A stretch of 38,572 nt of DNA. Source: a virus. Made by a program: the position numbers and the translations under genes. Below the pieces are notes generated by a model. That model was given only the letters and a program-made list of their open reading frames with translations, searched no databases and was not told where the DNA came from. Position 1 is the stretch's first letter. Every line of letters starts with the position of its first letter. Where the stretch lies: the UHGV virus genome UHGV-0071757; one strand, given 5' to 3'. Below are positions 21,017-38,572 of this stretch, one piece after another.

Positions 21017-21062
21017 ATTCGTAATGCGAAGGTCGTAGGTTCGACTCCTATTATCGGCACCA
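21017..21062 (+). other. att site: 3' 46 nt of a tRNA-Thr(CGU) (thrW-type) gene, partial, not a functional tRNA
   Basis: attcgtaatgcgaaggtcgtaggttcgactcctattatcggcacca has anticodon loop CGT, T-arm and acceptor 3' strand plus CCA. The 5' acceptor strand needed for a complete tRNA is absent upstream. Confidence 0.8.
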
Positions 21063-23530: not shown

Positions 23531-23596
23531 AAAATATTCGTTATTTCTGTGCCAGGATTACCTCGTCAAATTGAGTAGACGTTATGAGGTAAATAT

Positions 23597-23794
23597 ATGT
23601 CAAATACGCTTATTCGTTTAACAGAAGTTCAGCGTAGAACTGGATATAGCAAGGCATGGATTTATCGCCTTATGGGGCAAGGTAAATTTCCTGCATCAGT
23701 TAAAATTGGCTCGCGAGCTATTGCTTTCGTTGAGAGTGAAATTGACGAGTGGATTAATCAGCGTATTGCGGAATCACGCGGAACAGCTACCTGA
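23597..23794 (+). CDS. alpA: AlpA-family transcriptional regulator (excisionase-like HTH)
   Basis: 65 aa. LTEVQRRTGYSKAWIYRLMGQGKFPASVKIGSRAIAFVESEIDEWI is the AlpA/Vis-type signature. SD GAGGT upstream. Confidence 0.8.
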   Translation: MSNTLIRLTEVQRRTGYSKAWIYRLMGQGKFPASVKIGSRAIAFVESEIDEWINQRIAESRGTAT

Positions 23795-23871
23795 TTAAAT
23801 GGCTACGGGGCTATTGCCCCCAGCTATCCACCAGCAAATAAAAGTAACTTAATTCGATAGCAGGAGTTTTT

Positions 23872-25344: not shown

Positions 25345-25650
25345 TTATTCTGATTCTTTGGCCTTGCGGCGCTGGAGTTCTTCACGTGCGACGGTGACGA
25401 GCTGCCCGATCTCCTCGACAGCTTTGACTCCGATTTTTTCCACCTGCGCCAGTGCATTGAGCGAAGAAACCAGGGGATTTTCTCCGCTTCCTTCTGCCTG
25501 GCGGCGGGCGATCTCACCACGCATGGCGGTTACTATGAATCCGGCGTTGCTTTCGCCGTCCAGTTTTACGGATTCCATGCCTTCAAAAGCATCATGTGGG
25601 ATACGAATTGAAATCTGTTTTGATTTGTCGTTGATAGTGTTTTTTGCCAT
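25345..25650 (-). CDS. putative ribbon-helix-helix transcriptional repressor
   Basis: Start taken at the ATG with SD TAGGAGA 7 nt upstream (MAKNTINDKSKQISIRIPHDAFEGMESVKL...). Beta-strand/helix pattern typical of RHH, helical C-terminus. Divergent from the downstream operon. Confidence 0.6.
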   Translation of the reverse strand: MAKNTINDKSKQISIRIPHDAFEGMESVKLDGESNAGFIVTAMRGEIARRQAEGSGENPLVSSLNALAQVEKIGVKAVEEIGQLVTVAREELQRRKAKESE

Positions 25651-25672
25651 GTGCATTCTCCTAAACAAAAGA

Positions 25673-25748
25673 TGTGATTCAGTATACACAAAAAAGAATC
25701 ACAAAAAATACTTGACCTGTGATTCAGTTAAATTTAATTTAAATCACA
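25673..25748. promoter_or_regulatory. two palindromic operators (TGTGATTCAG-N-GAATCACA) in a divergent promoter region
   Basis: O1 25673-25702 and O2 25719-25748, with a TTGACC -35-like hexamer between them. Located between the RHH gene and the 25838 operon. Confidence 0.55.
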
Positions 25749-25837
25749 CCTCAGTAAGAGGATATAAACGACAACGCCCCGAACTGTTTGCGGCAGTAGC
25801 GGGGCGTCTAACCAAACCGTTAAATGAGGTAACGATT

Positions 25838-26203
25838 ATGGCTGGGGCACAGCATACCCAAACTCACCCTAAATTTATATACACCTTCTTGGCGGTGCAC
25901 CGTGATTGCATGGCTGACGGTAAAAACACTGTTCATGTAGCCGCCGATACGCTGGTTGATGCCTGCGAGATGCTCAATGACATGGGCTATATCTCGGCAA
26001 CATGGAAAGGGCGCGAAGAAAACACGTTGTTTATTCAGAAATGCGAAAACAATTTTATCTGGCGTTTTATCGCCCTGAGTACGGCACAACCGCGCGTGAT
26101 TCACATCGAGGCCACCAGCGAACAGGAAGCACGCCAGCAATCTCCTGATGGCTGCGTGATGGTATTCGCTGCCCGTATTCGCCAGGAGGTGGAGCATGTG
26201 TAA
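25838..26203 (+). CDS. hypothetical protein (first gene of replication/regulatory operon)
   Basis: ATG 25838 with GAGG SD 8 nt upstream, 121 aa. It is the in-frame 3' part of the 512-aa ORF in the track. Confidence 0.55.
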   Translation: MAGAQHTQTHPKFIYTFLAVHRDCMADGKNTVHVAADTLVDACEMLNDMGYISATWKGREENTLFIQKCENNFIWRFIALSTAQPRVIHIEATSEQEARQQSPDGCVMVFAARIRQEVEHV

Positions 26204-26420
26204 TGCAACATGGCCTGATGCAGCGGTAGACGCTATCAAAACGCTGATGGATTCACTTATTGAGATTTCTGCTATCGCTGGTGTGGCGCATAAACACGCA
26301 GCCAGAGAATCAGAATGCATCTCCCATTATTTAGCATTTGTGCAGCTGAAAGCCGATCAGGCACTGGATAAGGCCGGAAAAATTATCATGGCTGATGTAC
26401 AGGAGGTGCACCATGCATAA
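26196..26420 (+). CDS. hypothetical small protein
   Basis: 74 aa. Start overlaps the upstream stop (ATGTGTAA). Confidence 0.45.
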   Translation: MCNATWPDAAVDAIKTLMDSLIEISAIAGVAHKHAARESECISHYLAFVQLKADQALDKAGKIIMADVQEVHHA

Positions 26421-26778
26421 CCTGTCAATTTCTGACCTTAACAGCATTCAGTTTGACGAGATATTTTCCGGGCAGCTACTGGTCAACGTGGAGAATGGAC
26501 GCGTGGTAAGTAATTATCACCTGCCGGATGGTGCAATTGCCGGAAGCGTTGAAGCATTGCTGGAACTGGCGGAACGTGCGCGACTGATTAAGCCGTCAAC
26601 GTGCCATCACGATGATGATCTGCATTTTACCGGGTGTATGGTGAGTCACTACGAAAACGGCGTTGAAGTATCCTGCGAACGTCTGCGTGATGATTGCTGT
26701 TTCGGCACACTGCCGGAATTTATCGAATTGCTGACCAGTTGCGGTTATCAGGTCATTCAGGGGGGTAAACATGCGTGA
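26413..26778 (+). CDS. hypothetical protein
   Basis: ATG 26413 with AGGAGG 7 nt upstream. Overlaps the previous stop (ATGCATAA). Confidence 0.55.
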   Translation: MHNLSISDLNSIQFDEIFSGQLLVNVENGRVVSNYHLPDGAIAGSVEALLELAERARLIKPSTCHHDDDLHFTGCMVSHYENGVEVSCERLRDDCCFGTLPEFIELLTSCGYQVIQGGKHA

Positions 26779-27004
26779 TGATCGTTTTAATTCCCTGAAA
26801 CAGGAGTTTGATGGCGCACCGGAAGATACATCGGGCGCATTGTTGAGCATTGCTGACATGATGAAAGCTGCATATTTTCTTATCAATACCATTGGCTACA
26901 AGTCAGAGGGTGAAATGATTCTTAGTATTGCGTCGGACTATGCTGAATATGTGGCAGAGACGCGTTACAGAAGAAAATCTCTGGAGGATGTAAGCCATGC
27001 ATAA
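26771..27004 (+). CDS. hypothetical small protein
   Basis: 77 aa. Start overlaps the upstream stop, suggesting translational coupling. Confidence 0.5.
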   Translation: MRDDRFNSLKQEFDGAPEDTSGALLSIADMMKAAYFLINTIGYKSEGEMILSIASDYAEYVAETRYRRKSLEDVSHA

Positions 27005-27197
27005 TCATGAAGCGCATGTACCCGTAGTGCTTAATGTGCCAGATGATTTCACCGGACGCGTGCTGGTTTACCTTGATAAAGAAAAAGTGAAATCACAATG
27101 CCGACTGAAAAGTAATGAGATTGTGGGTTCTCCTGAATTTTTTTCTGAACTCTGTATTCGTGCAGAAATAAAACCGGAACTGCTGACAGGAAAATAA
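26997..27197 (+). CDS. hypothetical small protein
   Basis: 66 aa. Start overlaps the upstream stop (ATGCATAA). Confidence 0.45.
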   Translation: MHNHEAHVPVVLNVPDDFTGRVLVYLDKEKVKSQCRLKSNEIVGSPEFFSELCIRAEIKPELLTGK

Positions 27198-27201
27198 AAC
27201 C

Positions 27202-27492
27202 ATGAAAAGGAAAAATTCTGGCTTTACTGCCAGCGGTCTCTCTCGGCCTGAAATCAGACACGGAGATATTTACCGCGACACCAGACGTGGGGGACGAGTG
27301 GTTATTCGTCACGTTACGCCAGGCAATATCACCTACCGCCGTGAGGCTTACGAATATGACTGCGTAATGCCGCGCCGTCAGTTTGAGCGTGATTTTATTC
27401 TGGTGGAAAACAAACAACAGGCAGTGGCGAGACGTGCAGCCACGAATATTAAAAAAATCCGGGCAATGTTGGTTGCGGGAGGTAAGAAGTGA
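27202..27492 (+). CDS. small basic protein, possibly DUF4222-like
   Basis: 96 aa. RGGRVVIRHVTPGNITYRREAYEYDCVMPRRQFERDFILV resembles small proteins found upstream of primases in P4-like islands (recall, low confidence). Confidence 0.5.
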   Translation: MKRKNSGFTASGLSRPEIRHGDIYRDTRRGGRVVIRHVTPGNITYRREAYEYDCVMPRRQFERDFILVENKQQAVARRAATNIKKIRAMLVAGGKK

Positions 27493-29294
27493 AAAACGCA
27501 CCGAATTTAAAATATCAGCCGAAGGATAAATTCACCGAGGTAATCATTTTTGCCGGGACGGATGCTTACGCCCATGCTCAACACTGGATTGAAAGCGAAG
27601 GACGAAAACACGGCGATAACGTGCCTCCTGTTTACCTGGGGCCAAAGCAACTGGCAGACCTGGCGAATATCCGCATTGTCGACGATGAACGCCGCTTTGC
27701 GCGTGTCTATCTCGCGGGGGAGATAGAGCCAATCCAGATCAATGCTATTGCTGAAAAGCTGGCGCTGGCTGGTGTACAGGACGCGAAATTATACAAAGGT
27801 ATCACCGACCGGGAGCCGGAAAACTGGCGCGACTACCTGCAACGGATCCGCGAACAGGCAGAGAGTGGGGAAGTTTCAGCGATGAAATTAGCCACAAAAA
27901 ATATTGACCTATCCAGGCCAGCACTAAATCAGATGGGAGCCAGCCAGAGAGGGGAAGTGTTACTTGAATATTATGGAAGAGCACTGGCTATAAATGATGA
28001 TTCTGATGTAGTTCACCATTACAACGGAATTGTCTGGGTGCCTGTATCTGATAAGGAACTCCAGCGGTCTATGGCGAAGATTTTTATTGATGCTGGAATC
28101 AGTTATTCGCAAAACGCCATTAAATTTGCCGTAGACACAATGAAATTGAGCCTGCCTGTTATGGGCGGGGCAGACAGGAATCTTATTGGATTCAGTAACG
28201 GGGTATTTGATACCCGGACGGGAAATTTTCGGGAGCATAACAAAAATGACTGGTTGTTAAATGCCAGTGAATTACCGTTCAGCCCACCAGCAGAGGGGGA
28301 AACGCTGGCAACACATGCGCCGAATTTCTGGAAGTGGCTGCGTCGTTCGGTGGCAGATAATGATCGTAAAGCTGATCGCGTACTGGCGGCATTATTCATG
28401 GTGCTGGCGAACCGGTACGACTGGCAGTTATTCCTTGAGGTAACAGGCCCAGGCGGAAGCGGTAAAAGTGTGATGGCTGAGATTTGTACCATGCTGGCGG
28501 GTAAGGCCAACACAGTATCGGCAAGCATGAAGGCTCTGGAAGACGCAAGGGAACGCGCGTTAGTAGTTGGCTTTTCGCTGATTATCATGCCGGATATGAC
28601 TCGCTACGCTGGCGATGGTGCAGGAATTAAGGCAATTACTGGCGGCGACAAGGTGGCAATTGATCCGAAACATAAAGCCCCCTACTCCACACGTATTCCG
28701 GCAGTAGTGCTTGCGGTAAACAATAACGCCATGTCATTCAGTGACCGAAGCGGGGGGATCTCGCGTCGTAGGGTGATATTTAATTTCTCTGAGGTCGTAC
28801 CGGAGAACGAACGCGATCCCATGCTGGCGGAAAAGATAGAAGGCGAACTGGCGGTAGTGATTCGCCATTTGCTAACACGATTTACCGACCAGGACGAAGC
28901 TAAAAGACTACTTTATGAGCAGCAAAAATCAGAAGAAGCGCTGTTGATAAAGCGCGAAGGTGATTCACTGGTGGACTTTTGCGGCTATCTGATGTCGTTG
29001 GTTAAATGTGAAGGAATGATGGTGGGCAATGCGGAAATAGTGCCATTTAGCCCGAGGCGATACCTGTATCATGCTTATTTAGCCTATATGTCAGCGCATG
29101 GCCTGGGAAAACCAGTATCACTGACACGCTTTGGTACTGATATGCCAGGAGCTATGGCGGAATACGGAAAGGAGTATAAGCGGGCTAAATGCACTAAAGG
29201 CCCGGATAAAGGGCGAGTGATAACAAATGTTCTGTTAGATGATGATGCTGATGGCTGGTTGCCAGCAGCTACAGGGATTAACGACAGAACATAA
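27489..29294 (+). CDS. primase/helicase-like replication protein (D5-N/P4-alpha C-terminal type, P-loop NTPase)
   Basis: 601 aa. Walker A TGPGGSGKS preceded by a region resembling D5_N/primase C-terminal domains. Followed immediately by the iteron array. Confidence 0.75.
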   Translation: MKNAPNLKYQPKDKFTEVIIFAGTDAYAHAQHWIESEGRKHGDNVPPVYLGPKQLADLANIRIVDDERRFARVYLAGEIEPIQINAIAEKLALAGVQDAKLYKGITDREPENWRDYLQRIREQAESGEVSAMKLATKNIDLSRPALNQMGASQRGEVLLEYYGRALAINDDSDVVHHYNGIVWVPVSDKELQRSMAKIFIDAGISYSQNAIKFAVDTMKLSLPVMGGADRNLIGFSNGVFDTRTGNFREHNKNDWLLNASELPFSPPAEGETLATHAPNFWKWLRRSVADNDRKADRVLAALFMVLANRYDWQLFLEVTGPGGSGKSVMAEICTMLAGKANTVSASMKALEDARERALVVGFSLIIMPDMTRYAGDGAGIKAITGGDKVAIDPKHKAPYSTRIPAVVLAVNNNAMSFSDRSGGISRRRVIFNFSEVVPENERDPMLAEKIEGELAVVIRHLLTRFTDQDEAKRLLYEQQKSEEALLIKREGDSLVDFCGYLMSLVKCEGMMVGNAEIVPFSPRRYLYHAYLAYMSAHGLGKPVSLTRFGTDMPGAMAEYGKEYKRAKCTKGPDKGRVITNVLLDDDADGWLPAATGINDRT

Positions 29295-29319
29295 TACGAA
29301 ATTTATAAGCTGAAACGTA

Positions 29320-29660
29320 AAGGTAGACGGTTGGTAGACAGATTCACTTAACCCTCTACCAACCATCTACCAATTAATATTTTGAATTATAAAGATATTT
29401 TCAATGTGGTAGAGAGGTAGACAGTTATTTCTATATTCCTAAACCACGGGGGGTATATAAAAAACAGATAGTTAAGGGGGCATTTTTTAAATTTCTCTTT
29501 TAACTGTCTACACTGTCTACCATTTAGTAAAAATCATTAATTATCAATGTATTAATGCGGTAGACCGTTGGTAGACAGTTTGCAGATTGTTTTTTTGTTA
29601 TGTGTTAATAACATTAAATAAATCAATCAATTATATCGGTAGACAGTTGGTAGACAGTTG
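29320..29660. repeat. putative island replication origin: ~12 GGTAGAC(N)G iterons in both orientations with AT-rich spacers
   Basis: Copies at about 29322, 29333, 29354(rc), 29364(rc), 29408, 29416, 29505(rc), 29514(rc), 29558, 29568, 29637 and 29648. AT-rich stretches lie between clusters. Confidence 0.6.
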
Positions 29661-29665
29661 TAACG

Positions 29666-30208
29666 ATGGGGCAAAGCATGACTAAGCTGACCATTAACAG
29701 AAAACCAAAAGGTATTTACGGCACGCCGCAGAAAACGACGCAGGCGGCACAGGAGCAGGATAAAACCACATCGGCGCATAAAGTGATGCCCGGTAACCAG
29801 AAAGCGCAGCAGAAGCCTACAGGGGCGACACCGTGGCGGCATATGACCAAACGCCAGCGCAAAAACCGCAGGCGCGTTAACCGCCTCACTGAGTTGTGGC
29901 CTGACTTATTCAGCCGGGAAGCACTGAAGCCGCTTAAGGTGGGGATATTCGACGACCTGATGCAGGATCTCGCCGTCAGGGGGCTGGCATTCGGGCCAGG
30001 GGCATTGCGTGCGACGCTGGCATCTTATGCGCAGTGTCCGCGCTATTACCGCGCCTTAATGGCTGGTGGGGTACGCTACGACCTGAAAGGCCAGCCGTGC
30101 GGCGAGGTGACACCACAGGAACAACAGGACGCAGAAACGCGGCTGGTGGCGCTGAATGAGAAGCGCAAACGCCAGCGCCGGGCAGCAAAGGAGACAATAG
30201 GCGCATGA
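29666..30208 (+). CDS. ProQ/FinO-family RNA-binding protein
   Basis: 180 aa. LTELWPDLFSREALKPLKVGIFDDLMQDL...RYDLKGQPCGEV matches the FinO/ProQ N-terminal domain pattern. Basic N- and C-terminal tails. Confidence 0.7.
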   Translation: MGQSMTKLTINRKPKGIYGTPQKTTQAAQEQDKTTSAHKVMPGNQKAQQKPTGATPWRHMTKRQRKNRRRVNRLTELWPDLFSREALKPLKVGIFDDLMQDLAVRGLAFGPGALRATLASYAQCPRYYRALMAGGVRYDLKGQPCGEVTPQEQQDAETRLVALNEKRKRQRRAAKETIGA

Positions 30209-30492
30209 TTCACGACAGCAAAGCGGAAGCACTGGAAGCGCGTGGTCTGTACCGGAGAGCGGCGGCGCGGTGGGCTGAGGTCATCATGCTGGCGAATGAT
30301 GACAAGGCACGGGAACAGGCGGCAAAACGTCGCGCGGAATGTATCCACAAGGCAGCACGCCCACCAGCAAGGCAGGATAATTTCGGGGAGATGCGCGAAA
30401 CCATCAGCCGGGCACATGCCGGGATGGGATTACATCAGCCCAATGGTGAGGCATTCAGGAAATACCAAAAAAAGAACAATTGTAGTCAGTAA
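30205..30492 (+). CDS. PerC-family transcriptional regulator
   Basis: 95 aa. SKAEALEARGLYRRAAARWAEVIMLANDDKAREQAAKRRAECI resembles PerC-type activators. Overlaps the upstream stop. Confidence 0.65.
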   Translation: MIHDSKAEALEARGLYRRAAARWAEVIMLANDDKAREQAAKRRAECIHKAARPPARQDNFGEMRETISRAHAGMGLHQPNGEAFRKYQKKNNCSQ

Positions 30493-30626
30493 CAGAGGAT
30501 GGGATTCTCTTGGTTTTTTGTTGATGCTTTCTGAGGAAATCTACTACGTTGCTGAGCAGATGAATATTCAATTGCATCTGGGTTCCTGATAAGATTAATC
30601 TGAATATTTTCATTTGGAATAGGGAT

Positions 30627-31769
30627 ATGAATAAAACTTTAATTGCAACATTAGTCGGTATAGTAATGTTAACCGGATGTGGGCCAGAAGAGTTAACTCC
30701 AGAACAGAAACAGGAAGTAGCTGCTCTTAAAGCTGAACTGTCGCAAACGGAAGGTGAAATATCAGCAGCTAAGGAAGTTGACCAGCAGTTTTCTGGTGGG
30801 TTGATAAAAAATCTGACAACAGCAAGACTGGAAATATTAGGAACTAATAAAGCGCTTTTGGAACAGCGTATTAATGCTATTGAATCAGGTGCCAAAATTG
30901 ATGTTGTTGTATCTGGAGTAAAACCTGATCCTGAGCTTGCGGCTTCAATTAAAACTGAAATTGACAGCTTAGATGCAAAAATCAACGAAGCCAAAGCTGA
31001 TGCTCGTCAGTATAGTGGTGGTCTGATAAAGGTACTAAAATTATCTACTGTTGCCACTGAAGAGCAGACCATGGCAATGTTGCAGCAAAAGTACCTCACA
31101 GCCAAGTATGGCCTCGCTGAAGTTAAGCTGGCATCAGTACAAGCTAATGACGCAAAAAACAGTACTGAAACGGAAGTAACAGCCAAAAATTCCCAAGAGC
31201 AACTTCCTTTACTCCCGCCAGCGGATGGTCCGTTTGGCTTAGAAGCCGGTCTTACACAGAAAAACATCGAAGATATGATCGGTGCTAAGCTCAAGCCACT
31301 ACCAGACAGTGTGAATCTGTATACTTCTGATAAATTACCGAAGCAAAACGCAGATTTTGAAATGTATGGTTTGCTGATCTCCCCGAAAGCTGGTTTATGT
31401 CAAATACGGGCTTTAGGAAAAAATATTGATACTGATAGCTATGGATTGGCTCTTAAATCCAAGTTTGAAGAATTGAGTAATTCTTTAAGTTCTCTGTATG
31501 GAAAGGCTGATACTACAGACTTTTTGCTGGCTGGTTCAATTTGGAAAGATCCTCAGGACTGGATGAGGGGGCTAAACAAAAAAGAACGCTTCTTATCTGC
31601 TACATGGAAGGGAACAAAAGAAATACCATTAAAAAACAATATTGATACTATATCTATTGAGGCCAGAGCGAACAATTCCACTCAGGGATATGTCTATCTG
31701 CAGTACTCATTTACAAATGACGAAATTTGTCAGGCAGAAATTGAAGGGGCGAAAAAAAGTTCCCTTTAA
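30627..31769 (+). CDS. lipoprotein with internal repeat, unknown function
   Basis: 380 aa. Signal peptide plus lipobox VMLTGCG. Duplicated (Q/R)Q(F/Y)SGGLIK segments. Strong terminator downstream. Confidence 0.7.
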   Translation: MNKTLIATLVGIVMLTGCGPEELTPEQKQEVAALKAELSQTEGEISAAKEVDQQFSGGLIKNLTTARLEILGTNKALLEQRINAIESGAKIDVVVSGVKPDPELAASIKTEIDSLDAKINEAKADARQYSGGLIKVLKLSTVATEEQTMAMLQQKYLTAKYGLAEVKLASVQANDAKNSTETEVTAKNSQEQLPLLPPADGPFGLEAGLTQKNIEDMIGAKLKPLPDSVNLYTSDKLPKQNADFEMYGLLISPKAGLCQIRALGKNIDTDSYGLALKSKFEELSNSLSSLYGKADTTDFLLAGSIWKDPQDWMRGLNKKERFLSATWKGTKEIPLKNNIDTISIEARANNSTQGYVYLQYSFTNDEICQAEIEGAKKSSL

Positions 31770-31780
31770 ACAATCCGTGC

Positions 31781-31806
31781 AAAGCCCCTTAGTAAGGGGC
31801 TTTTAT
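31781..31806 (+). terminator. rho-independent terminator
   Basis: agcccctt/aaggggct stem followed by TTTT. Confidence 0.7.
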
Positions 31807-31833
31807 ATATTAATGTTCAACGTGGGGGATTAG

Positions 31834-32157
31834 ATGAAAGATAATCTAGCAAAACTAATTGAAAATACTTTAAAAGATATTCTATTAGCTAATGCTGCTC
31901 TAACATTCATTTTTGCAATACCAATGGCTATTATCAGTAGGCATGGGATGGGCATCACAATCTGGTTTATAACTGTGCTCATTGCACCTGCTCTGTGTGC
32001 AGTAGGTGCATGGCTTGTATCTCGAACATCCGGCCATGCTGAGGAGTTCTTTCATCGTCGGTGGGCTAAGCGAATTTATGTTTTTTATACTCTTGCGGCT
32101 GCCGAGTTTTTGCTTGTGTACTCAATCGCGCAAATAATGAAAAATCTGATGAAATAA
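31834..32157 (+). CDS. small inner-membrane protein
   Basis: 107 aa with 2-3 predicted TM segments (LLANAALTFIFAIPMAII, ITIWFITVLIAPALCAVGAWLV). SD GGGGGA upstream. Confidence 0.55.
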   Translation: MKDNLAKLIENTLKDILLANAALTFIFAIPMAIISRHGMGITIWFITVLIAPALCAVGAWLVSRTSGHAEEFFHRRWAKRIYVFYTLAAAEFLLVYSIAQIMKNLMK

Positions 32158-32445
32158 TTAACAAGTTATTATCATGGAGCTTGTGGCTGTTAACCTGCAG
32201 TGAGGCGACAATCGTGTATTTATAAAAACTTCCCCTTTTCACTCCCCGCAGCTTCTTCTGCTATTGCCTTTATGTTTGCATGCACCAACATCTGCCATAC
32301 CTTTGCAGAAAAATCAGAGCATTCAGTGCCGAAGGTTGGTTTATTGATGCTTTTCGTTTCATTTATTGCAATTGTCTCTGGTATCATTTCAATTTGTGCA
32401 ATAATTGCAATAATTGCAATTATTGTCATTCAGAAGGGATCATCA

Positions 32446-32612
32446 TGAAAAATCACGGAGTAAAGCCAGTTTTACTTTCCCGGAGGCAGATCGAAGCCCT
32501 GCAACGCATCCAGGACGAAGAGCGTCAGAAATCTGTGCTTGGTGTGGCACCGTCGATTCATGTTATCGCTCGGCAACTGATGGATAAGGCACTTAAAGAG
32601 GTGAGACTGTGA
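32446..32612 (+). CDS. hypothetical small protein (possible DNA-binding/antitoxin-like)
   Basis: Taken from the internal ATG 32446 of the 32280-32612 ORF, with AAGGG upstream, giving 55 aa. Basic helical segment SRRQIEALQRIQDEERQ. Confidence 0.4.
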
Positions 32613-32881
32613 AATTAAATATCAGAGTGGATAAACGCCAGCTATGGCAGAAAAAAGAGAACAGCGAGGCATTCAGGGCGTTGCTGGTGGAAAATCTTCA
32701 GCATCGGTTCAGTGGAGAGTTGCCTGATGCTCTAGGGAAGAAACTGGAATCCCTGACGGTGGAAATTGGCGATTATGGCTTTGTTGATGTTGAAAGCACG
32801 ACTGCCAACACAGAAATCGTAAAACAGGTCGTCAATGATGTAATGAAAACCACGCTTAGCCAGCCATCCTGGCGCAACTGA
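32609..32881 (+). CDS. hypothetical protein
   Basis: 90 aa, GTG start overlapping the upstream stop (GTGA). Followed by a hairpin. Confidence 0.5.
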   Translation: MKLNIRVDKRQLWQKKENSEAFRALLVENLQHRFSGELPDALGKKLESLTVEIGDYGFVDVESTTANTEIVKQVVNDVMKTTLSQPSWRN

Positions 32882-32886
32882 ATCAG

Positions 32887-32912
32887 TAAGGGGCGGTTAT
32901 TGCCCCTTTCCT
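32887..32912 (+). terminator. putative terminator hairpin
   Basis: aaggggc/gcccctt stem. The U-tract is weak (tttcc). Confidence 0.45.
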
Positions 32913-32962
32913 CCATACCCACAACGCATTCCCTTTCCGCATGAAATTATTTTTTATCGTAT

Positions 32963-33508
32963 ATGCATGAGGTGAGCTACATGTTGATGAGTAAAGCCGA
33001 ATACGCCAAATACAAAGGCGTAAGCCGCCAGACAGTTTACGACTGGCTCGAGAAAGGCGAAGTGGTCATGTCCGGTAAAAAAATTGATGTGGAAGCGACA
33101 GAGCAGCGGAACAGCCCACCAGCACAGGGGAAAGACACCATTTCTGAAATGTGGCCAGAAAGAACGCTGGAAATGACATGGGGCGAGTTCTGGAAAGCAG
33201 TTAAGGCCAGAGACGGTAAAATTCCTGCGCCAGTAACGGACGAGGGCATACAGCAGCGTGTGCTGTATGCAGCCGGGGAATTAGGCTGGGAAGTGCACTT
33301 TCTTGATGATGGTGCTATCTGCCTTGAGGATGATGAAGGGCAGCATTACTTTGAAAAATACAATTTGCGAGGTAATGCCAGGCTGGCAATTCGTATGCTG
33401 CGTTGCGAACTCTGCTATGTTGCAGGTGATTATCCCGATGAACCGGAATCATGGAGTGAAGCCGGGTTAAACGCCCTGGCTGAGTGGGAAAAATCAGACC
33501 ATCAATGA
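32963..33508 (+). CDS. helix-turn-helix DNA-binding protein
   Basis: 181 aa (a likelier start is ATG 32981 after GAGG). N-terminal HTH SKAEYAKYKGVSRQTVYDWLEKGEV. Ends 3 nt before the repeat region. Confidence 0.65.
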   Translation: MHEVSYMLMSKAEYAKYKGVSRQTVYDWLEKGEVVMSGKKIDVEATEQRNSPPAQGKDTISEMWPERTLEMTWGEFWKAVKARDGKIPAPVTDEGIQQRVLYAAGELGWEVHFLDDGAICLEDDEGQHYFEKYNLRGNARLAIRMLRCELCYVAGDYPDEPESWSEAGLNALAEWEKSDHQ

Positions 33509-33510
33509 CA

Positions 33511-33810
33511 TCAAAAAGTGTCAAGTTGAGCAGCTTGCCAGCTTGCCAGCTTGCCAGCTTGCCAGCTTGCCAGCTTGCCAGCTTGCCAGGTTGACACTTT
33601 ACACTCTGAACGCGAAAAAGTGTCAACCTCGCTGTAAGCCCCGCAATTACTGGGTTTGTGCCAGATTTACCACGTCAAAAAGCCGAAAAAACCGCGAAAA
33701 ATGTCAAGTTGCCATGCTTAGAAATGCTAAGGTTTTTCGCGAAAAAGTGTCAAGTGTGTCAACCTGCGATATTAAGATTTATTAAGGTCTTAAGCCGGAA
33801 AGTGTCAACC
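33511..33810. promoter_or_regulatory. array of dispersed (A)AAGTGTCAA(G/C) motifs (about 7 copies, one inverted)
   Basis: Motif copies near 33517, 33590(rc), 33619, 33700 (variant ATGTCAAG), 33746, 33755 and 33801, several with a CGCGAAAAA prefix. Confidence 0.6.
33531..33586. repeat. (CAGCTTGC)x7 octanucleotide tandem repeat
   Basis: Counted directly: 7 perfect 8-nt units (56 nt), flanked by inverted half-sites AGTGTCAA (33516-33523) and TTGACACT (33591-33598). Confidence 0.95.
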
Positions 33811-33929
33811 AGCCCCCTAAGATTTCCTAAGGTGTGATTGGACGTGCTGTACCCTTCTTGTCGCAATGTGGATGAATGACTATAGTGCTGGTAGCTTTGA
33901 CAGCAGAATCAGATTACTGAAGGAAATGT

Positions 33930-34514
33930 GTGATGAGTTTTTTTAGTCTTTATGGGAAAGAACTATTTTCTTTTTTTATAACGATTTTAACATGGATACT
34001 GAATAACAGATTTAAAAGCAAGGCAAAGTTATCCTATGGTTATCAGCATGGATTTACTTTTCTTCTCAATGAACCCTTACGGAATGCCAATGGTGAGGTA
34101 ATATCTAATTCACAGTTGGTGTATACACGATCTATTATTCTTGTTAATGAAGGGCGAGAAAGTGCTACTAATATCTCATTGGTTTTTAACTATAAGCCAA
34201 TGCATATTAATTTTTGGCCTGTCCACCATTTTGAAGAAAATATTGAACAGGATGGTCGCTATATTATCAAGTTTGAAAGCCTTGCACCTGGTGAGTCTAT
34301 TCAATGTGAAATATTATCAATAAATAGAGAAGTTCCAAGTATTCTATCGATAAGATCTAAAGAGTGTGTGGCTGAGCCAGTGAATATCGTGATGCAAAAA
34401 TCGATTAGTAATATTGCCTTACGTTGCTATCAATTATTAATACTTCTTGGAACTGGCACATTAACATATTTAATTATCGTTATTCTGCAATGGTTAGTCA
34501 CTAAAACGGGATAA
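33930..34514 (+). CDS. AT-rich membrane-anchored protein, unknown function
   Basis: 194 aa. N-terminal TM (LFSFFITILTWIL) and C-terminal TM (LLILLGTGTLTYLIIVILQWLV). Markedly AT-rich codon usage by eye. Confidence 0.6.
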   Translation: MMSFFSLYGKELFSFFITILTWILNNRFKSKAKLSYGYQHGFTFLLNEPLRNANGEVISNSQLVYTRSIILVNEGRESATNISLVFNYKPMHINFWPVHHFEENIEQDGRYIIKFESLAPGESIQCEILSINREVPSILSIRSKECVAEPVNIVMQKSISNIALRCYQLLILLGTGTLTYLIIVILQWLVTKTG

Positions 34515-34536
34515 TCCATTGTATTGAACTTATTAA

Positions 34537-34746
34537 TTGGATATGAGTGCTGATAGGAAACCTATGACCATCACCGAAGCCGATATGCTGGAGATGATCC
34601 GCAGCATTGCCGGAATCAAACAACCAGCAAGCAAAATTAACAGGTGTTCAGCGCCTGTTTCCGTTGTGCTGCAACAGGAACGCCACCAGCGGCGGGAAAA
34701 CGAAAAGGCGTACCAATGGACGAAGCCAAACAAGTTACGGCGTTAA
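34537..34746 (+). CDS. hypothetical small protein (uncertain)
   Basis: 69-aa ORF followed by a good terminator. No motif. Confidence 0.35.
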   Translation: MDMSADRKPMTITEADMLEMIRSIAGIKQPASKINRCSAPVSVVLQQERHQRRENEKAYQWTKPNKLRR

Positions 34747-34752
34747 TTAGGG

Positions 34753-34778
34753 ATGCGGGCTGGGATAGCCCGCATTTT
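34753..34778 (+). terminator. rho-independent terminator (possibly bidirectional)
   Basis: atgcgggct/agcccgcat stem followed by TTTTG. Lies between convergent ORFs. Confidence 0.6.
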
Positions 34779-34780
34779 GC

Positions 34781-35038
34781 TCACAGCTTGTTATAAATTT
34801 TTCCAGCGAAGTCATGAACCGCCTGAGGAATATCCGACGGCGTACCTAGCATTGTTGGCGCATCGGAAACAAAGAACATGATCGCTTCTTTGATTTCTTT
34901 GAAAGATGGGGTAGGGGTAATGCGCTTGAGATTTGAAACAGCCCGTCGGAACTCCGCCGTATCCATTGGATGCCTGCTAAACCACGTTGGACTAGAAGCC
35001 CAACATTTTACTGCTTCTTTCACCTTAGTGTTCATCAT
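34781..35038 (-). CDS. hypothetical small protein
   Basis: 85 aa, tandem ATG start with SD AAGGAAAA upstream on the minus strand. Confidence 0.5.
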   Translation of the reverse strand: MMNTKVKEAVKCWASSPTWFSRHPMDTAEFRRAVSNLKRITPTPSFKEIKEAIMFFVSDAPTMLGTPSDIPQAVHDFAGKIYNKL

Positions 35039-35640
35039 TTTTCCTTTTGCTTATTACCATACAAAGCATGTGGAAAGAGAAGATTAACATGGAAAATATG
35101 GGGTTGGTGAGCAAATGGTACTGGTAGCCCGTCGACATCTATCAGCATGATGATGTGAGGCCGTATCAGTGGCGGAAACCGAACAGGCTGCGACGGTGAG
35201 CGGGGCGTTATAGTAAGCCAACAGCCAAGCCAAACATTAAGCCTAAGGGTAGGGCTTTTTTGTGGCTGGTGGCGTAATGCCAACATTTTTACATGATGTT
35301 TTGAGGTATTATCTGCATGTTCGTGGTGAGGAACCACCAGAACTGATGAGCTTTTGTTTATGCATGTACTGCATGAAAACTGTCCTATAAAGTGGGGGGT
35401 AGGTGTGCTGAGGAGAACATTGTGAGCTACGCCAAATTAAATTGTGTCGGGGGTGAACAAGTTTCTTGATAGGTGTCAGTAGGCACCTATAGTTATAGGC
35501 TTCTTCAATTTTGTGTGCACAATATTTTGTATTGATTGGGGATAGGGTTGCACGCAAAATTAAAAAATGTATATTTATTAACGTGTATTTGATAATTTTT
35601 AAATAAAATATTTCTCTATGTTTATCATAAAAGGTTTTTT

Positions 35641-37239
35641 ATGAGCGTGGCAATAAAAACAATGACACCAGTGTCATATTCTATAAAAGTTGATGCGATT
35701 AAGAAAAGATTGTCATATTTTAGTGATGTTTCTTTTTTGAGAAATTTTTATGAACACTTCCAAAAAGTAAGGGATGTCGAGGTGGGTATTGTTTCCAATT
35801 TCCCTTGGTGTTGCTATCTGGCAATGAAATGGAAGTTTTGCATGAAGGAAAAAAAGCCTGCAAAAGAAATGAGTAAAAATGATTTTGTTGATATTATCAA
35901 CTTAATCTATAACTTGCAACTAGAAGCATCTAATTTAATCGTTGATGATAAAGTTATGCTAAGCCTTAGACGAATGGTGATAAATCAGTTGCTTTATCAA
36001 TCAACTGATAAATTTAATGCCAATTCATTAACAAGACAGTATATTTGGTATTGCTTGAATGATGAATCATATTATAAAGATAAGTTTTTAGAATGTACTG
36101 GTTTACATTTGGAAAACTATTACAAAATGGCATGTTATTTTACCGCTATTTCATGTATTAATCCTGATATAGAATCAGAGGTTATTCCATTTAAACACTT
36201 GATAATAAACTTGGTTCCGATATTTGGTCCGGAACAAGTGAAAAGATTTTTGGAATTAACATGCTTAAAAATTGATGGTGTGAGAGATTTTATTGCCCCA
36301 TATAAATTGGATAAAAACATTACCGCTGAGTATTATGAAGATACACCATTCCTCAGTAAACCAATGTTTTTAGATGGCGATGGTGTAGTGATATTATGCA
36401 AAAGAATCATGAAGTCAGGGTTTGTCAACCTAGTTCCAGAATTGTTCAAGCAGGTCTATAAGGAATCTTATAAAGAAAAATTTGGTAAGACGATGGAACT
36501 TTATATTTCTCGCTTTCTTGATAAGTACAATTATAACTTTAAGACTGAAAGGGAGGTTAAGAGGATTTATAGTGATAATGCAATAAAAAATTGCAAGTCC
36601 GTAGATTTTGTTATTTCAGAGGGAGATTCAATAGTTTATATTGACTCGAAGGCAATAGAGCCTGCAAAGTTCGTTAAAACATCTAATAATGCTCAGTTGC
36701 TAAAGGAAAGGTTGAATAAGAGTTTTATTAAAGGGATTTATCAAGGTCAGGAATGTGCTTTTAACTTAAATAAAATAGAGATGAGAAAACCATCTTCGAA
36801 AGATTCAATGTTAATTGTGGTGCATCGGGATCATCATATATCAAATGCAATGGTTGTGCAGGATTTTATTAACCCTGATTTATCAACTGAGTTATCTGAA
36901 AAATATCATAGTATCCCCATTGATCTAAAAAGAATTTACTATATAACAATTGATGAGTTCGAATTATTACTTATGATGTGTAAACAGAAAGAACTATCTA
37001 TTAATGAGTTTATTGATATGTGTGTGGAAAAAGATTCATTCCCTCATACTCAGAAGTCTAATCTAAGCATGCACATATATGAATTTGCACCAGAGGGTAT
37101 TGATGATGATCAATTGATTGTAAAAGGAAGAGACTTACTGATTGATGATGTTATTGAAAATATGAAAGAGAGTGCATCAAAATGGTCTGGGAAAGTTGAT
37201 ATGTATCTTAAAATAAAAGATTATATTTTTAATTGGTAA
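35641..37239 (+). CDS. orphan 532-aa protein, possible PD-(D/E)xK-like nuclease motif; candidate defence/accessory protein
   Basis: Long ORF with strongly AT-rich codon usage, its own AT-rich upstream region and a strong terminator. Segment SVDFVISEGDSIVYIDSKA fits a beta-hairpin D ... (D/E)xK pattern. No other recognisable motif. Confidence 0.7.
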   Translation: MSVAIKTMTPVSYSIKVDAIKKRLSYFSDVSFLRNFYEHFQKVRDVEVGIVSNFPWCCYLAMKWKFCMKEKKPAKEMSKNDFVDIINLIYNLQLEASNLIVDDKVMLSLRRMVINQLLYQSTDKFNANSLTRQYIWYCLNDESYYKDKFLECTGLHLENYYKMACYFTAISCINPDIESEVIPFKHLIINLVPIFGPEQVKRFLELTCLKIDGVRDFIAPYKLDKNITAEYYEDTPFLSKPMFLDGDGVVILCKRIMKSGFVNLVPELFKQVYKESYKEKFGKTMELYISRFLDKYNYNFKTEREVKRIYSDNAIKNCKSVDFVISEGDSIVYIDSKAIEPAKFVKTSNNAQLLKERLNKSFIKGIYQGQECAFNLNKIEMRKPSSKDSMLIVVHRDHHISNAMVVQDFINPDLSTELSEKYHSIPIDLKRIYYITIDEFELLLMMCKQKELSINEFIDMCVEKDSFPHTQKSNLSMHIYEFAPEGIDDDQLIVKGRDLLIDDVIENMKESASKWSGKVDMYLKIKDYIFNW

Positions 37240-37243
37240 TTAA

Positions 37244-37275
37244 GCAAGGGTGTTATTATCAACACCCTTGCTCAT
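37244..37275 (+). terminator. rho-independent terminator
   Basis: 11-bp stem gcaagggtgtt/aacacccttgc with a 6-nt loop. Confidence 0.65.
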
Positions 37276-38012
37276 AGTCTTACAATATTAAATGTTGTGT
37301 TTTTTATTTATATATTTTATTGCCCATCAAGCTATTAATTCATCTCGTTGTTTGAGATAGGTTGAGCATTTGTATTTTTTTATCAATTTTATCTGTATGA
37401 GCTTAAGCAGCTTCAATAATATCTGCGTTAAATTACGCTTCATTCAGAGACGTGCTTGCTATTGACATGTAATCCATGTGCAACAAGATTCCTGCCATAA
37501 CTTATGCGTTTCAGATCCGAATCATGGACTGCTTTAAGTCATTTTTGTAGGGAAAACATGTTCACATGTCAGCACTGATTTGTTTCATCATATCCACTAT
37601 CTCGAATTTCTGTGTCGATAGATGAATGCAGACGGAAATATGTGAATTTTGTGCACGCTCTGCTATTAAGCGAAAACGAGCGTGGATATATCAACTAATA
37701 ATTGCCCTCATTAACATAGGTGGTGGCGGGTATAATCTCTGTAACCCAGTTGTTCGTGACTACCCACCTCGTCAAATTTTCACACCCGCGAAATGAAAAA
37801 TACTTCACGCTAGTGGTTATCCTTGGGCATCCACCAGCCCTTCATCATTGCCTGCCGGTGAGGCTGAGGCTCGAAGAAAAAGAGTGCTAGATAGTCGATT
37901 TTTGCCTGGTTTGGGATAAGGGAAAATTTATTGGGGGTACTTTTGGGGGTATCTATAAAAATGAAATATGAAAATATCATTAAATATCAATGTATTTTTT
38001 GTTTATGTTTTG

Positions 38013-38029
38013 TTCCTATTATCGCACCA
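38013..38029 (+). other. second att core: 16 nt matching the tRNA-Thr 3' end (tcctattatcg-cacca)
   Basis: Matches 21047-21062 with a 1-nt deletion, then continues into the duplicated int promoter region. Confidence 0.75.
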
Positions 38030-38519
38030 TTCTAACGTCTCCCCAAGTCTACTCAAGTATTTAAAAACCTCTTATAATCAGTATATTAATGCCCCTTTTA
38101 GTCTTTTGACGTCTATTTAAGTACCCCAAACTCTACAAGCAATTGAGGGGATTTGCTGTTCAGTTTAGTGGAGATACCCCCAAGTGAAACTCAATGCCCG
38201 TCAAATAGACACTGCCAAGCCAAAAGAGAAGGCTTACAAGCTGGCTGATGGTGGTGGTCTGTATCTCCTGGTAAAACCTAGTGGAGGAAAATATTGGCGC
38301 TTCAAGTATCGTGTAGCTGGTAAAGAGAAGCTGTTAGCACTAGGTGTGTATCCTGAAGTTACCTTGGCTGATGCTCGTGCAAAACGTGAAGAAGCTAAAA
38401 GGGGTATCGCTGGGGGTATCGATCCGATGGAAGCGAAACGAGAGGAAAAGATTGCCCGGGAAACGCAGTTAAACAACACCTTCAAAGATATTGCCCTTGA
38501 GTGGCACAGTAACAAATTA
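38013..38519 (+). repeat. direct repeat copy B (att core + int promoter + int 5' end)
   Basis: Aligns by eye with 21047-21567, with a ~12-nt deletion in the GGGGTAC motif region and scattered mismatches. Confidence 0.85.
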
Positions 38520-38522
38520 TAA
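38184..38522 (+). pseudogene. truncated P4-family integrase (N-terminal 112 codons only)
   Basis: Identical to int residues 1-109, then diverges (HSNKL-stop) into unrelated AT-rich sequence. No catalytic domain. Confidence 0.8.
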
Positions 38523-38572
38523 TCACAATAATAGTGTATATAATTATACATTGTATGCTTGGTAATCATATA

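What the first reader, a model, noticed from the sequence alone, without database searches (positions are those of the whole stretch)
33930..34514. AT-rich two-TM membrane protein at the start of the low-GC cargo block
A 194-aa ORF with codon usage far more AT-rich (by eye) than the island backbone. It has an N-terminal TM helix, a ~140-aa soluble middle and a C-terminal TM/hydrophobic tail. Small membrane proteins of foreign base composition on satellites are often abortive-infection effectors or exclusion proteins. It may function alone or with the downstream 532-aa gene.
Basis: inference. Interest (0 to 1): 0.5.

Follow-up and report, generated by a model that had tools for sequence, protein, structure and literature searches.

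The report
Unannotated membrane-anchored beta-sandwich moron gene
A small, AT-rich gene near the end of an E. coli phage satellite encodes a membrane protein from a large family that nobody has named; the family hops on its own between phages and satellites, often lands next to anti-phage genes, and is therefore a credible but untested candidate for a new one-gene phage-exclusion factor.

Summary
ORF 33930-34514 is real (probable start ATG 33933, 193 aa), under purifying selection (dN/dS 0.09-0.18). Its GC is 32.6% (GC3 26%), below every equal-sized stretch of the satellite backbone (46.7 +/- 4.8%). It has an N-terminal and a C-terminal hydrophobic helix around a nine-strand beta-sandwich (AlphaFold2 pLDDT 96.7).

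It lies in a 17-kb EcCIMP1-like satellite (PICI) bounded by thrW att cores at 21046 and 38014. It is a discrete 728-bp insertion (33836-34563) carrying a promoter-like site. It is not contiguous with the second low-GC gene.

That 532-aa gene is GapS1, a published single-protein defence. The two genes assort independently in E. coli: both 5, target only 10, GapS1 only at least 1.

The protein belongs to a large unannotated family (591 clusters at 50% identity, nearly all about 190 aa). It has no Pfam, PADLOC, PHROG, NCBIfam or PDB match. Charge bias puts the beta-sandwich in the cytoplasm.

Members occur singly, with no conserved partner, in PICIs, P2-like phages, an inovirus prophage, a T7-like contig and as orphans. 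They often sit beside defence genes (GapS1, bSEFIR, AbiGi, SngA, PDC candidates).

Best reading: a stand-alone anti-phage exclusion or abortive-infection moron. This is inferred and untested.

The parts
33836..34563 (+). 728-bp low-GC cassette (promoter-like site, ribosome-binding site, ORF, 49-nt tail). It is inserted between the PICI iteron region and the 60-aa gene shared with related elements.
   Evidence: BLASTN against the empty-site PICI of E. coli FDAARGOS_1058 (L050): window 32981-33835 and 34564-34690 are only 9 nt apart there. The annotation of that locus shows HTH gene, then 59-aa gene, with no gene between.
33858..33886 (+). Sigma-70-like promoter candidate (TTGTCG, 17 nt, TATAGT) inside the cassette, about 45 nt upstream of the start codon.
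   Evidence: Consensus scan, 9 of 12 matches. The number of such sites in the region is not above the shuffle expectation, so this is only a candidate.
33920..33925 (+). Ribosome-binding site AAGGAA, 7 nt before ATG 33933.
   Evidence: Read from the sequence. The RefSeq CDS start agrees.
33933..34514 (+). Coding sequence: 193 aa plus stop (194 aa if the GTG at 33930 is used).
   Evidence: dN/dS 0.09-0.18.
33936..34010 (+). N-terminal helix (residues 2-26; hydrophobic core about 11-25). Predicted reverse signal-anchor, with the N terminus outside.
   Evidence: AlphaFold2 helix 2-26. Hydropathy and charge bias: family-wide, the N tail is net acidic and 2.9 K+R follow the helix.
34029..34355 (+). 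Nine-strand beta-sandwich (residues 33-141). Predicted cytoplasmic. Holds the family motifs NxGR(72-75), FN..P(85-89), N.WP(93-96), DGR(107-109), LAP(117-119), LP(134-135).
34410..34508 (+). C-terminal helix (residues 160-192; hydrophobic core about 167-188) with invariant Gly173 and conserved Tyr179 and Gln186. Predicted tail anchor.
   Evidence: Invariant columns.
33510..33835 (.). Context: PICI iteron region directly upstream of the cassette. 8-bp tandem CAGCTTGC, about 8.5 copies (33531-33600), and at least 7 copies of AAAGTGTCAA in both orientations.
   Evidence: The empty-site relative has a single copy of the 8-mer.
34564..34746 (+). Context: 60-aa gene shared with related PICIs (51% GC), directly downstream. 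It is present in relatives with and without the target.
35641..37239 (+). Context: GapS1, a known single-protein PD-(D/E)xK anti-phage system. It is a separate cargo insertion.
   Evidence: NCBIfam NF047931 at 440.7 bits, cutoff 320. RefSeq gene name gapS1. Paper 10.1101/2023.03.28.534373.
21046..21055 (+). Context: attL core TCCTATTATC of the PICI. It lies inside a stretch at 21017-21062 that matches the last 46 nt of thrW as I recall that tRNA sequence.
   Evidence: The same core is reported for EcCIMP1 (PMC11773190).
38014..38023 (+). Context: attR core of the PICI. The element is therefore 21046-38023, about 17.0 kb.
   Evidence: 2 matches against 0.06 expected.

Best explanation
The gene is a self-contained, horizontally mobile 'moron': one ORF, apparently with its own promoter. 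Temperate phages and satellites carry it near their att-proximal ends or in accessory modules.

Proposed structure. The product is an inner-membrane protein. An N-terminal reverse signal-anchor helix and a C-terminal tail-anchor helix pin a roughly 110-residue CBM2/Ig-like beta-sandwich to the cytoplasmic face of the membrane (N terminus out, C terminus out).

Proposed function. It is a stand-alone anti-phage factor that protects the cell carrying the element. The beta-sandwich would be the recognition module, binding a phage protein or the cytoplasmic face of a host inner-membrane complex that phages need. The helix pair, with its invariant Gly173, would be the oligomerising or effector module.

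Proposed outcome. Either infection is aborted by membrane permeabilisation (slightly favoured), or genome entry or early development is blocked without cell death.

What is shown: the gene is real, it is a discrete cassette, it is independent of GapS1, the family is large, the fold is confidently predicted, members are carried on mobile elements, neighbours are variable, and defence genes recur nearby.

What is inferred: the topology (from charge bias), expression in the integrated state, and the whole anti-phage function and mechanism.
For: 1. Discrete 728-bp insertion carrying a promoter-like site, against an otherwise syntenic PICI.
2. Rare accessory gene, in 15 of 5426 E. coli genomes, yet under purifying selection.
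3. Large family of constant size and architecture: 591 clusters at E<=1e-3 and 351 at E<=1e-10.
4. Carried by at least four kinds of mobile element, plus orphans:
   - EcCIMP1-like PICIs in E. coli and Citrobacter.
   - A TerS-type PICI in Hafnia, as the last gene before fis/dusB.
   - P2-like phages, downstream of the conserved ~550-aa late-region gene and near the integrase, i.e. near the end of the prophage.
   - An inovirus prophage, next to an SNase gene and a Gp49/HTH (HigBA-like) pair.
   - A T7-like contig.
   - A small resolvase element.
   - Orphans beside mug.
5. No conserved partner: 164 metagenomic neighbours fall into 143 clusters.
6. Immediate neighbours are repeatedly known or candidate defence genes:
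   - GapS1.
   - bSEFIR, twice and independently.
   - AbiGi plus PDC-S31, PDC-S15 and PDC-S49.
   - SngA and PDC-S60.
7. In this PICI lineage the slot just downstream swaps between GapS1, bSEFIR, a DUF4747 pair and nothing, so this end of the element is a cargo hotspot.
8. Topology: K+R near the helices is 4.65 on the domain side against 1.48 in the tails, with the domain side higher in 95% of 94 members. The N tail is net acidic.
9. Invariant Gly and conserved polar residues in helix 2.
Against: - There is no homology to any characterised defence, exclusion or abortive-infection protein. PADLOC, Pfam, PHROGs, NCBIfam and PDB sequences give nothing for the query or for 94 members.
- Fold matches are generic beta-sandwiches, mostly extracytoplasmic carbohydrate-binding or adhesin domains. 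This sits uneasily with a cytoplasmic location.
- In the broader metagenomic sample only 3 of 143 non-redundant neighbours are strong defence hits, with about 5 weaker ones. The association there is modest, and no matched background rate was computed.
- Cargo slots of mobile elements also carry non-defence genes.
- The promoter call is a consensus match no more frequent than in shuffled sequence.
[quoted passage not shown] It cannot be credited to this gene, because strain MP1 lacks it.
Confidence: 0.42

Rival explanations
1. It is an exclusion protein of the opposite topology (N terminus in, C terminus in). The CBM2/Ig-like beta-sandwich is displayed in the periplasm, held by two membrane anchors. 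There it binds peptidoglycan, LPS or capsule precursors, a host receptor, or an incoming phage tail or ejection protein, and blocks genome delivery in the manner of classical superinfection exclusion.
For: All structural neighbours are extracytoplasmic binding modules: CBM2 cellulose- or chitin-binding domains, pilins, adhesins, integrin and TRAP-beta domains. The close homologues keep two cysteines, C125 and C145. The gene is placed near the att-proximal end of the mobile elements where their borders could be seen, as conversion and exclusion morons often are (my general knowledge).
Against: Three to four K/R residues and almost no acidic residues lie within 12 residues after helix 1, and about two before helix 2. 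The 10-residue N tail is net acidic and the C tail is nearly uncharged. This holds in 95% of 94 members. Such charges directly after a signal-anchor normally prevent export of the following domain (established positive-inside rule). The cysteines are not conserved across the wider family.
Confidence: 0.15
2. It is not an anti-phage gene. It is a lysogenic-conversion or fitness cargo that alters envelope physiology, stress tolerance or host interaction, or a membrane scaffold used by the mobile elements themselves. Its neighbours are defence genes only because all cargo accumulates in the same slots.
For: There is no homology to any defence protein. Many contexts have no recognisable defence gene nearby. 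PICI and prophage cargo slots also carry virulence and regulatory genes, for example PerC in EcCIMP1 (PMC11773190). The beta-sandwich has no catalytic signature, and its conserved residues are mostly turn-forming G, P, N and D.
Against: A role in a mobile-element life cycle is hard to reconcile with carriage by elements as different as P2-like myoviruses, inoviruses, a T7-like phage and PICIs, and with orphan chromosomal copies. Known or candidate defence genes recur as direct neighbours in unrelated taxa.
Confidence: 0.3
3. It is the membrane partner of the downstream 532-aa GapS1 gene, forming a two-gene system.
For: Both genes are low-GC, on the same strand, and 1.1 kb apart at the same end of the satellite.
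Against: GapS1 protects when expressed alone, and E. coli homologues were validated (10.1101/2023.03.28.534373). In complete E. coli genomes the two genes assort independently: both 5, target only 10, GapS1 only at least 1. They are separate insertions divided by 1.05 kb of 45.7% GC sequence that includes the 60-aa gene shared with related PICIs. None of the non-E. coli contexts whose neighbours were annotated has GapS1 next to a family member, and a BLASTP of the window's GapS1 against the 164 metagenomic neighbours found nothing.
Confidence: 0.03
4. It is a toxin, addiction or immunity determinant: a membrane toxin that stabilises the element, or an orphan immunity protein against a membrane-targeting toxin.
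For: It is a small membrane protein on mobile elements. One homologue lies beside a HigB/HigA-like pair and a nuclease. One orphan lies beside hcp.
Against: No conserved adjacent antitoxin, toxin or effector gene in about 90 contexts. The gene persists as a single orphan in chromosomes.
Confidence: 0.07

Closest known systems
Cap15 (CBASS two-TM beta-barrel membrane effector; Duncan-Lowey et al. 2021, cited from my own knowledge and in PMC9122126)
   Same: About 200 aa. Two membrane helices plus one small all-beta cytoplasmic domain. Belongs to the class of defence proteins in which a soluble beta domain controls a membrane-disrupting helix pair.
   Different: In Cap15 both helices are N-terminal, and the beta-barrel binds a cyclic nucleotide made by an adjacent CD-NTase. 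Here the helices flank the domain, no cyclase or other partner is conserved, and no PADLOC model of any kind matches.
Prophage superinfection-exclusion inner-membrane morons (HK97 gp15, T4 Imm, P22 SieA, lambda/P22 SieB)
   Same: A small inner-membrane protein encoded as an AT-rich single-gene moron of a temperate element, dispensable for that element, and placed near its att-proximal end.
   Different: No sequence similarity. Pfam, which to my recollection includes a SieB model, gives no hit. The architecture differs (TM, beta-sandwich, TM, with the domain predicted cytoplasmic). No phenotype is known.
GapS1 / GAPS1 (the neighbouring gene)
   Same: Cargo of the same PICI end, with the same low GC. 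A single-gene system.
   Different: GapS1 is a soluble 532-aa PD-(D/E)xK protein triggered by a capsid protein. It is unrelated in sequence, inserted separately, and assorts independently of the target.
CBM2 / Ig-like beta-sandwich domains (e.g. Cellulomonas fimi CBM2 1exg/6qfs; C. cellulovorans EngD 3ndy; PitA 7w6b; TTHA1873 7wrk)
   Different: Only 7-13% identity. No profile match. Those domains are secreted and lack flanking membrane helices.
Transmembrane proteins of the three-gene TIR system of P2-like phage AC1 (Rousset et al. 2022; filed in DefenseFinder as Rst_2TM_1TM_TIR as I recall)
   Same: A membrane protein in a hotspot of a P2-like phage or satellite. In one PICI the target is followed two genes later by a TIR/SEFIR protein.
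   Different: That TIR protein is bSEFIR, a single-gene system (PADLOC 378.8 bits). No PADLOC model matches the target or 94 relatives. The target usually occurs without any TIR gene.

Membership tests
Any curated protein family (Pfam-A, NCBIfam, PHROGs) | A significant profile-HMM match. | tested here: not met
   No hit for the query in Pfam, PHROGs or NCBIfam. Of 94 diverse members, none has a meaningful Pfam hit; there is one spurious CM2 match at E = 0.004.
Known or candidate anti-phage systems in PADLOC-DB v2.0.0 | A match to a component model of a defence system. | tested here: not met
   No hit for the query or for 94 members at E <= 0.01. Newer DefenseFinder and PADLOC releases could not be queried.
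GapS1 system | The target is required by, or consistently linked to, the GapS1 gene. | tested here: not met
   Independent assortment in E. coli PICIs. GapS1 acts alone.
Superinfection-exclusion or abortive-infection membrane proteins (functional class) | Reduces infection by other phages when expressed. | not testable with these tools
   Needs phage challenge assays. Only contextual evidence is available.
Superinfection-exclusion or abortive-infection membrane proteins (functional class) | An integral inner-membrane protein encoded as dispensable cargo of a temperate element. | tested here: met
   Two hydrophobic helices predicted by hydropathy and AlphaFold2. Presence/absence polymorphism in syntenic PICIs. 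Carried by phages and satellites.
Cap15-like two-TM beta-barrel effectors | Two N-terminal TM helices followed by a nucleotide-binding beta-barrel, encoded in a CD-NTase operon. | tested here: not met
   The helices flank the beta domain. There is no conserved neighbour and no cyclase was identified among the annotated neighbours. There is no PADLOC hit.
EcCIMP1-like PICI (the element carrying the gene) | Integration at thrW with core TCCTATTATC. Gene set of integrase, AlpA-type regulator, primase and PerC. No structural or lysis genes. | tested here: met
   The core occurs at 21046 and 38014. A stretch at 21017-21062 matches the last 46 nt of thrW as I recall that sequence. Integrase, P4-type primase, ProQ and PerC are present. 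In E. coli strains K56-43-un (99.9% identical to window 33500-37500) and MP1 the truncated integrase that begins at window 38184 is followed by MarR and vat; those two genes lie beyond the window. The AlpA gene was seen only in the RefSeq annotation of the near-identical strain, as 'helix-turn-helix transcriptional regulator'. Mobilisation by a helper phage was not tested.
CBM2 / CARDB-type beta-sandwich superfamily | Fold similarity plus detectable sequence-profile relatedness. | tested here: inconclusive

The most novel reading that the evidence does not exclude
The gene founds a new, widespread family of single-gene anti-phage proteins. Its architecture has not been described for defence: a cytoplasmic beta-sandwich sensor stapled to the inner membrane by one helix at each end. 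The family would be spread as a free-standing moron by PICIs, P2-like, filamentous and T7-like phages.
Probability: 0.3. Interest if true: 0.7.

Novelty: new variant of a known kind. Interest (0 to 1): 0.55.

Why it matters
If the gene protects against phages, it would add a very compact one-gene defence or exclusion family of about 190 aa and 0.7 kb. No current annotation resource recognises it: Pfam, NCBIfam, PHROGs and PADLOC all miss it.

The family is already abundant: at least 591 clusters at 50% identity, across Gamma- and Betaproteobacteria and many soil, freshwater and marine metagenomes.

Its unusual predicted topology would give a new model for how a membrane effector is coupled to a sensor: both ends in the membrane and the beta domain inside the cell.

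The clean presence/absence polymorphism in otherwise identical PICIs makes the question directly testable with natural isogenic-like pairs.

If it is not a defence gene, it is still one of the more widespread unannotated moron families, and it marks a cargo slot in EcCIMP1-like PICIs.

Tried and rejected
- **Profile libraries.** Pfam, PADLOC and PHROGs on the target and nine neighbours, NCBIfam on the target and nine window proteins, and Pfam and PADLOC on 94 family members. Nothing for the target.
- **PDB sequence profile search**. Nothing.
- **Conserved partner gene.** Searched among neighbours of 23 genomic or viral loci and 67 metagenomic loci. None found. The 59-86-aa downstream gene is specific to the PICI lineage and is present without the target.
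- **GapS1 partnership.** Rejected on distribution and on the literature.
- **The TIR system with transmembrane partners from the P2-like phage hotspot.** The Citrobacter TIR neighbour is bSEFIR, a single-gene system.
- **EcCIMP1's published superinfection immunity.** Strain MP1 lacks the gene.
- **Cleavable signal peptide or lipoprotein.** The n-region has no net positive charge, a cluster of K/R follows the hydrophobic core, and there is no lipobox (sequence).
- **Literature search** by protein accession numbers. No paper.
- **Rfam scan** of 33300-38572. No RNA family.
- **The search for related loci** with the broad alignments failed for lack of a conserved stretch. A hand-made degenerate DNA motif replaced it.

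Full report
**1. The observation**

ORF 33930-34514 (+) exists. RefSeq annotates the same gene in near-identical E. coli chromosomes from the ATG at 33933 (193 aa, WP_000007757.1). An AAGGAA ribosome-binding site lies seven bases upstream.

Its GC content is 0.326 and GC3 is 0.263. Windows of 582 nt across the satellite backbone (21046-33929) average 0.467 +/- 0.048 and never fall below 0.359 (profile).

The gene is under purifying selection. dN/dS is 0.18 against the 94%-identical E. coli variant, 0.09 against Citrobacter and 0.12 against Hafnia.

Hydropathy shows a hydrophobic segment at each end. AlphaFold2 gives helix 2-26, a nine-strand beta-sandwich 33-141 and helix 160-192. pLDDT is 82.9 with 12 sequences and 96.7 (pTM 0.81) with 94 sequences.

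**2. Where the gene sits**

The 10-bp core TCCTATTATC occurs exactly twice, at 21046 and 38014, against 0.06 expected. This is the att core reported for the phage-inducible chromosomal island EcCIMP1, which integrates in tRNA-Thr between proA and yagU, next to a MarR-vat island (PMC11773190).

The first copy lies inside a stretch (21017-21062) that matches the last 46 nt of thrW as I recall that tRNA sequence. In the near-identical strain K56-43-un a complete tRNA-Thr sits about 170 nt upstream of the same integrase.

Between the cores lie:
- an integrase (21229-22443);
- an antirepressor-like gene;
- a P4-type primase (27489-29294);
- ProQ/FinO and PerC genes;
- a helix-turn-helix protein with weak small-terminase and excisionase similarity (32963-33508).

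No structural genes are present. After the second core comes a truncated integrase. In strains K56-43-un and MP1 it is followed by MarR and vat, which lie beyond the window. The 'island backbone' is therefore a 17.0-kb EcCIMP1-like PICI, and the target lies 3.5-4.1 kb from its attR.

**3. The gene is a discrete cassette, not the start of one block**

A related PICI in E. coli FDAARGOS_1058 aligns to window 32981-33835 and then, nine bases later, to 34564-34690. Its annotation shows the HTH gene followed directly by the 59-aa gene.

The target therefore lies in a 728-bp insertion (33836-34563). The insertion also holds a TTGTCG-17-TATAGT promoter-like site at 33858-33886. That site is a consensus match only, and such sites are not enriched in the region.

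Downstream come 1.05 kb of 45.7% GC with a 60-aa gene shared with related PICIs. After that comes the second low-GC gene.

**4. The 532-aa neighbour is GapS1 and is independent**

The 532-aa product scores 440.7 bits against NCBIfam antiphage_GapS1 (cutoff 320) and is named gapS1 in RefSeq. GAPS1 is a single PD-(D/E)xK protein. It protects alone, is triggered by a capsid protein, and has validated E. coli homologues (10.1101/2023.03.28.534373).

Among 5426 complete E. coli genomes the target is present in 15:
- 5 also carry GapS1;
- 10 do not;
- strain EC23-1020 has GapS1 in the same PICI lineage without the target;
- many relatives have neither.

In the same downstream slot other relatives carry bSEFIR (Citrobacter; PADLOC 378.8 bits), a DUF4747 pair, or nothing. 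That end of the element behaves as a cargo hotspot with two separate slots.

**5. The family**

A word-indexed search found only 14 close clusters in Enterobacterales. An exhaustive profile search found 591 representative clusters at E <= 1e-3, and 351 at E <= 1e-10. Nearly all are 180-205 aa and match end to end.

No Pfam, PADLOC, PHROG, NCBIfam or PDB sequence match exists for the query or for 94 diverse members.

Invariant or near-invariant positions are N72, G74, P89, P96, P135 and G173. Family motifs are NxGR, FN..P, N.WP, DGR, LAP and LP, plus G173, Y179 and Q186 in the second helix.

**6. Topology**

Over 94 members, the 12 residues after helix 1 carry 2.86 K+R and 0.16 D+E. The 12 residues before helix 2 carry 1.79 K+R and 0.17 D+E. 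The roughly 10-residue N tail carries 0.72 K+R and 1.76 D+E, and the C tail carries 0.76 K+R. The domain side exceeds the tails in 95% of members.

By the positive-inside rule the beta-sandwich is cytoplasmic and both short tails face the periplasm. That would make helix 1 a reverse signal-anchor and helix 2 a tail anchor.

This is a prediction. It conflicts mildly with the extracytoplasmic nature of the structural neighbours, so the opposite topology is kept as a rival.

**7. Genomic contexts of relatives**

- **Hafnia:** the gene is the last one of a different, TerS-carrying PICI, just before fis/dusB.
- **P2-like phages:** in Yersinia phage vB_YenM_324 and a Pantoea P2-like plasmid-prophage it lies downstream of the conserved ~550-aa late-region gene. 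In the Pantoea record it lies between that gene and the integrase, i.e. near the att-proximal end. Other P2-like contigs place it beside PDC-S49 (a KAP NTPase) or a DUF6338 protein.
- **Inovirus prophage:** it sits in the divergent accessory module with an SNase-domain gene and a Gp49/HTH (HigBA-like) pair.
- **T7-like contig:** one member lies on the opposite strand between the RNA polymerase and SSB genes.
- **Resolvase element:** one member follows a small resolvase.
- **Orphans:** Serratia and an Enterobacteriaceae isolate carry single copies beside mug. The Enterobacteriaceae isolate and a Yersinia massiliensis locus keep short remnants of P2-like sequence.
- **Other taxa:** in Pandoraea it lies between AbiGi and PDC-S31, in Dyella beside PDC-S15 (FRG domain), and in Methylotenera beside an integrase.

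A degenerate DNA motif recovered 82 metagenomic loci, and 72 of the 80 scanned encode a family ORF. Their 164 nearest neighbours fall into 143 clusters with no recurrent partner. The gene's GC is below that of its flanks in 42 of 46 loci, by 6.5 points on average.

Among the 143 representatives PADLOC finds strong hits to SngA, bSEFIR and PDC-S60. It finds weaker hits to HNH/PtuB, type I REase, pVip, PDC-M01B and PDC-M69A.

**8. Interpretation**

The evidence shows a stand-alone, highly mobile, AT-rich moron encoding a membrane-anchored beta-sandwich protein. Many kinds of temperate element carry it, and it is repeatedly placed in slots that also receive defence systems.

I take the most likely function to be protection against other phages (confidence about 0.4). 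I slightly prefer a sensor-coupled membrane effector (abortive infection) over a block of genome entry. The reasons are the predicted cytoplasmic sensor-like domain and the invariant glycine with polar residues in helix 2.

Nothing here demonstrates that function. There is no homology to a characterised protein. The association in the broad metagenomic sample is modest and lacks a matched background. Cargo slots also hold non-defence genes.

The rivals are: a periplasmic-domain exclusion protein; a non-defence conversion or fitness factor; a toxin or immunity determinant; and a GapS1 partner, which is effectively excluded.

**9. Novelty and score**

Small membrane morons that exclude phages are a known kind. 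This family, its architecture and its distribution are not described in any library or paper I could search. I rate it a new variant of a known kind, with interest 0.55. The phage challenge, topology mapping and cargo-matched defence score listed under next steps would settle the question.

Noticed in passing
window 1-20700: This is the late region of a P22-like prophage: large terminase 2484-3896, portal 3890-6025, coat 6935-8206, ejection proteins 12180-15433, tailspike 16799-19744. It lies in tandem directly upstream of the PICI attL. EcCIMP1's helper phage Kapi1 carries a podovirus-type name (vB_EcoP) and, as I recall, is P22-like, so this may be a helper and its satellite side by side at thrW.
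   Followed up: partly
window 21017-21062 and 38014-38023: A stretch matching the last 46 nt of thrW (as I recall the tRNA sequence) at the PICI left end, and a second copy of the att core TCCTATTATC at the right end. Together they define the PICI as 21046-38023 (17.0 kb). ARAGORN finds no complete tRNA in the window, which fits an intact thrW lying beyond the prophage.
   Followed up: yes
window 33510-33835: An iteron-like region downstream of the HTH gene. It has the 8-bp tandem CAGCTTGC in about 8.5 copies, flanked by inverted AAAGTGTCAA, and at least 7 copies of AAAGTGTCAA(C/G) in both orientations. It is probably the PICI origin or packaging site. The tandem copy number varies between strains; FDAARGOS_1058 has one copy.
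   Followed up: partly
window 35641-37239: The 532-aa gene is GapS1, a known single-protein PD-(D/E)xK anti-phage system (GC 0.308). Relatives carry bSEFIR, a DUF4747 plus 199-aa pair, or nothing in the same slot, so this is a defence hotspot at the attR end of EcCIMP1-like PICIs. The DUF4747 pair has no PADLOC hit.
   Followed up: yes
window 34691-35142: A second indel of 452 bp relative to related PICIs. It holds an antisense 85-aa ORF (34781-35038) and changes the C terminus of the 60-aa gene. Its function is unknown.
   Followed up: no
window 30627-32157: Another low-GC pair (GC 0.40 and 0.39, GC3 about 0.32): a 380-aa protein with a lipobox-type N terminus (LTGC), and a 107-aa hydrophobic protein. 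Both are present in some relatives of this PICI lineage (L004, L013) and absent from others (L006, L009). They may be a further accessory module.
   Followed up: no
window 32963-33508: A 181-aa HTH protein with weak similarity to small terminase subunits and excisionases, directly upstream of the iterons. It could be a packaging-redirection (Rpp-like) or replication-initiation factor of the PICI.
   Followed up: no
L054 (metagenomic contig SRR23595544_1943577), 1745-2329: A distant family member lies on the opposite strand inside a T7-like phage contig, between the RNA polymerase and the SSB and endonuclease I genes. This is an unusual place for a moron.
   Followed up: no
L012 8001-8582 (Serratia) and L035 8001-8582 (Enterobacteriaceae RIT714): Orphan copies of the gene sit at the same chromosomal spot, next to mug and upstream of rpoD-dnaG, in two genera. 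The RIT714 copy keeps a short fragment shared with P2-like phage contexts, which suggests decayed prophage ends.
   Followed up: partly
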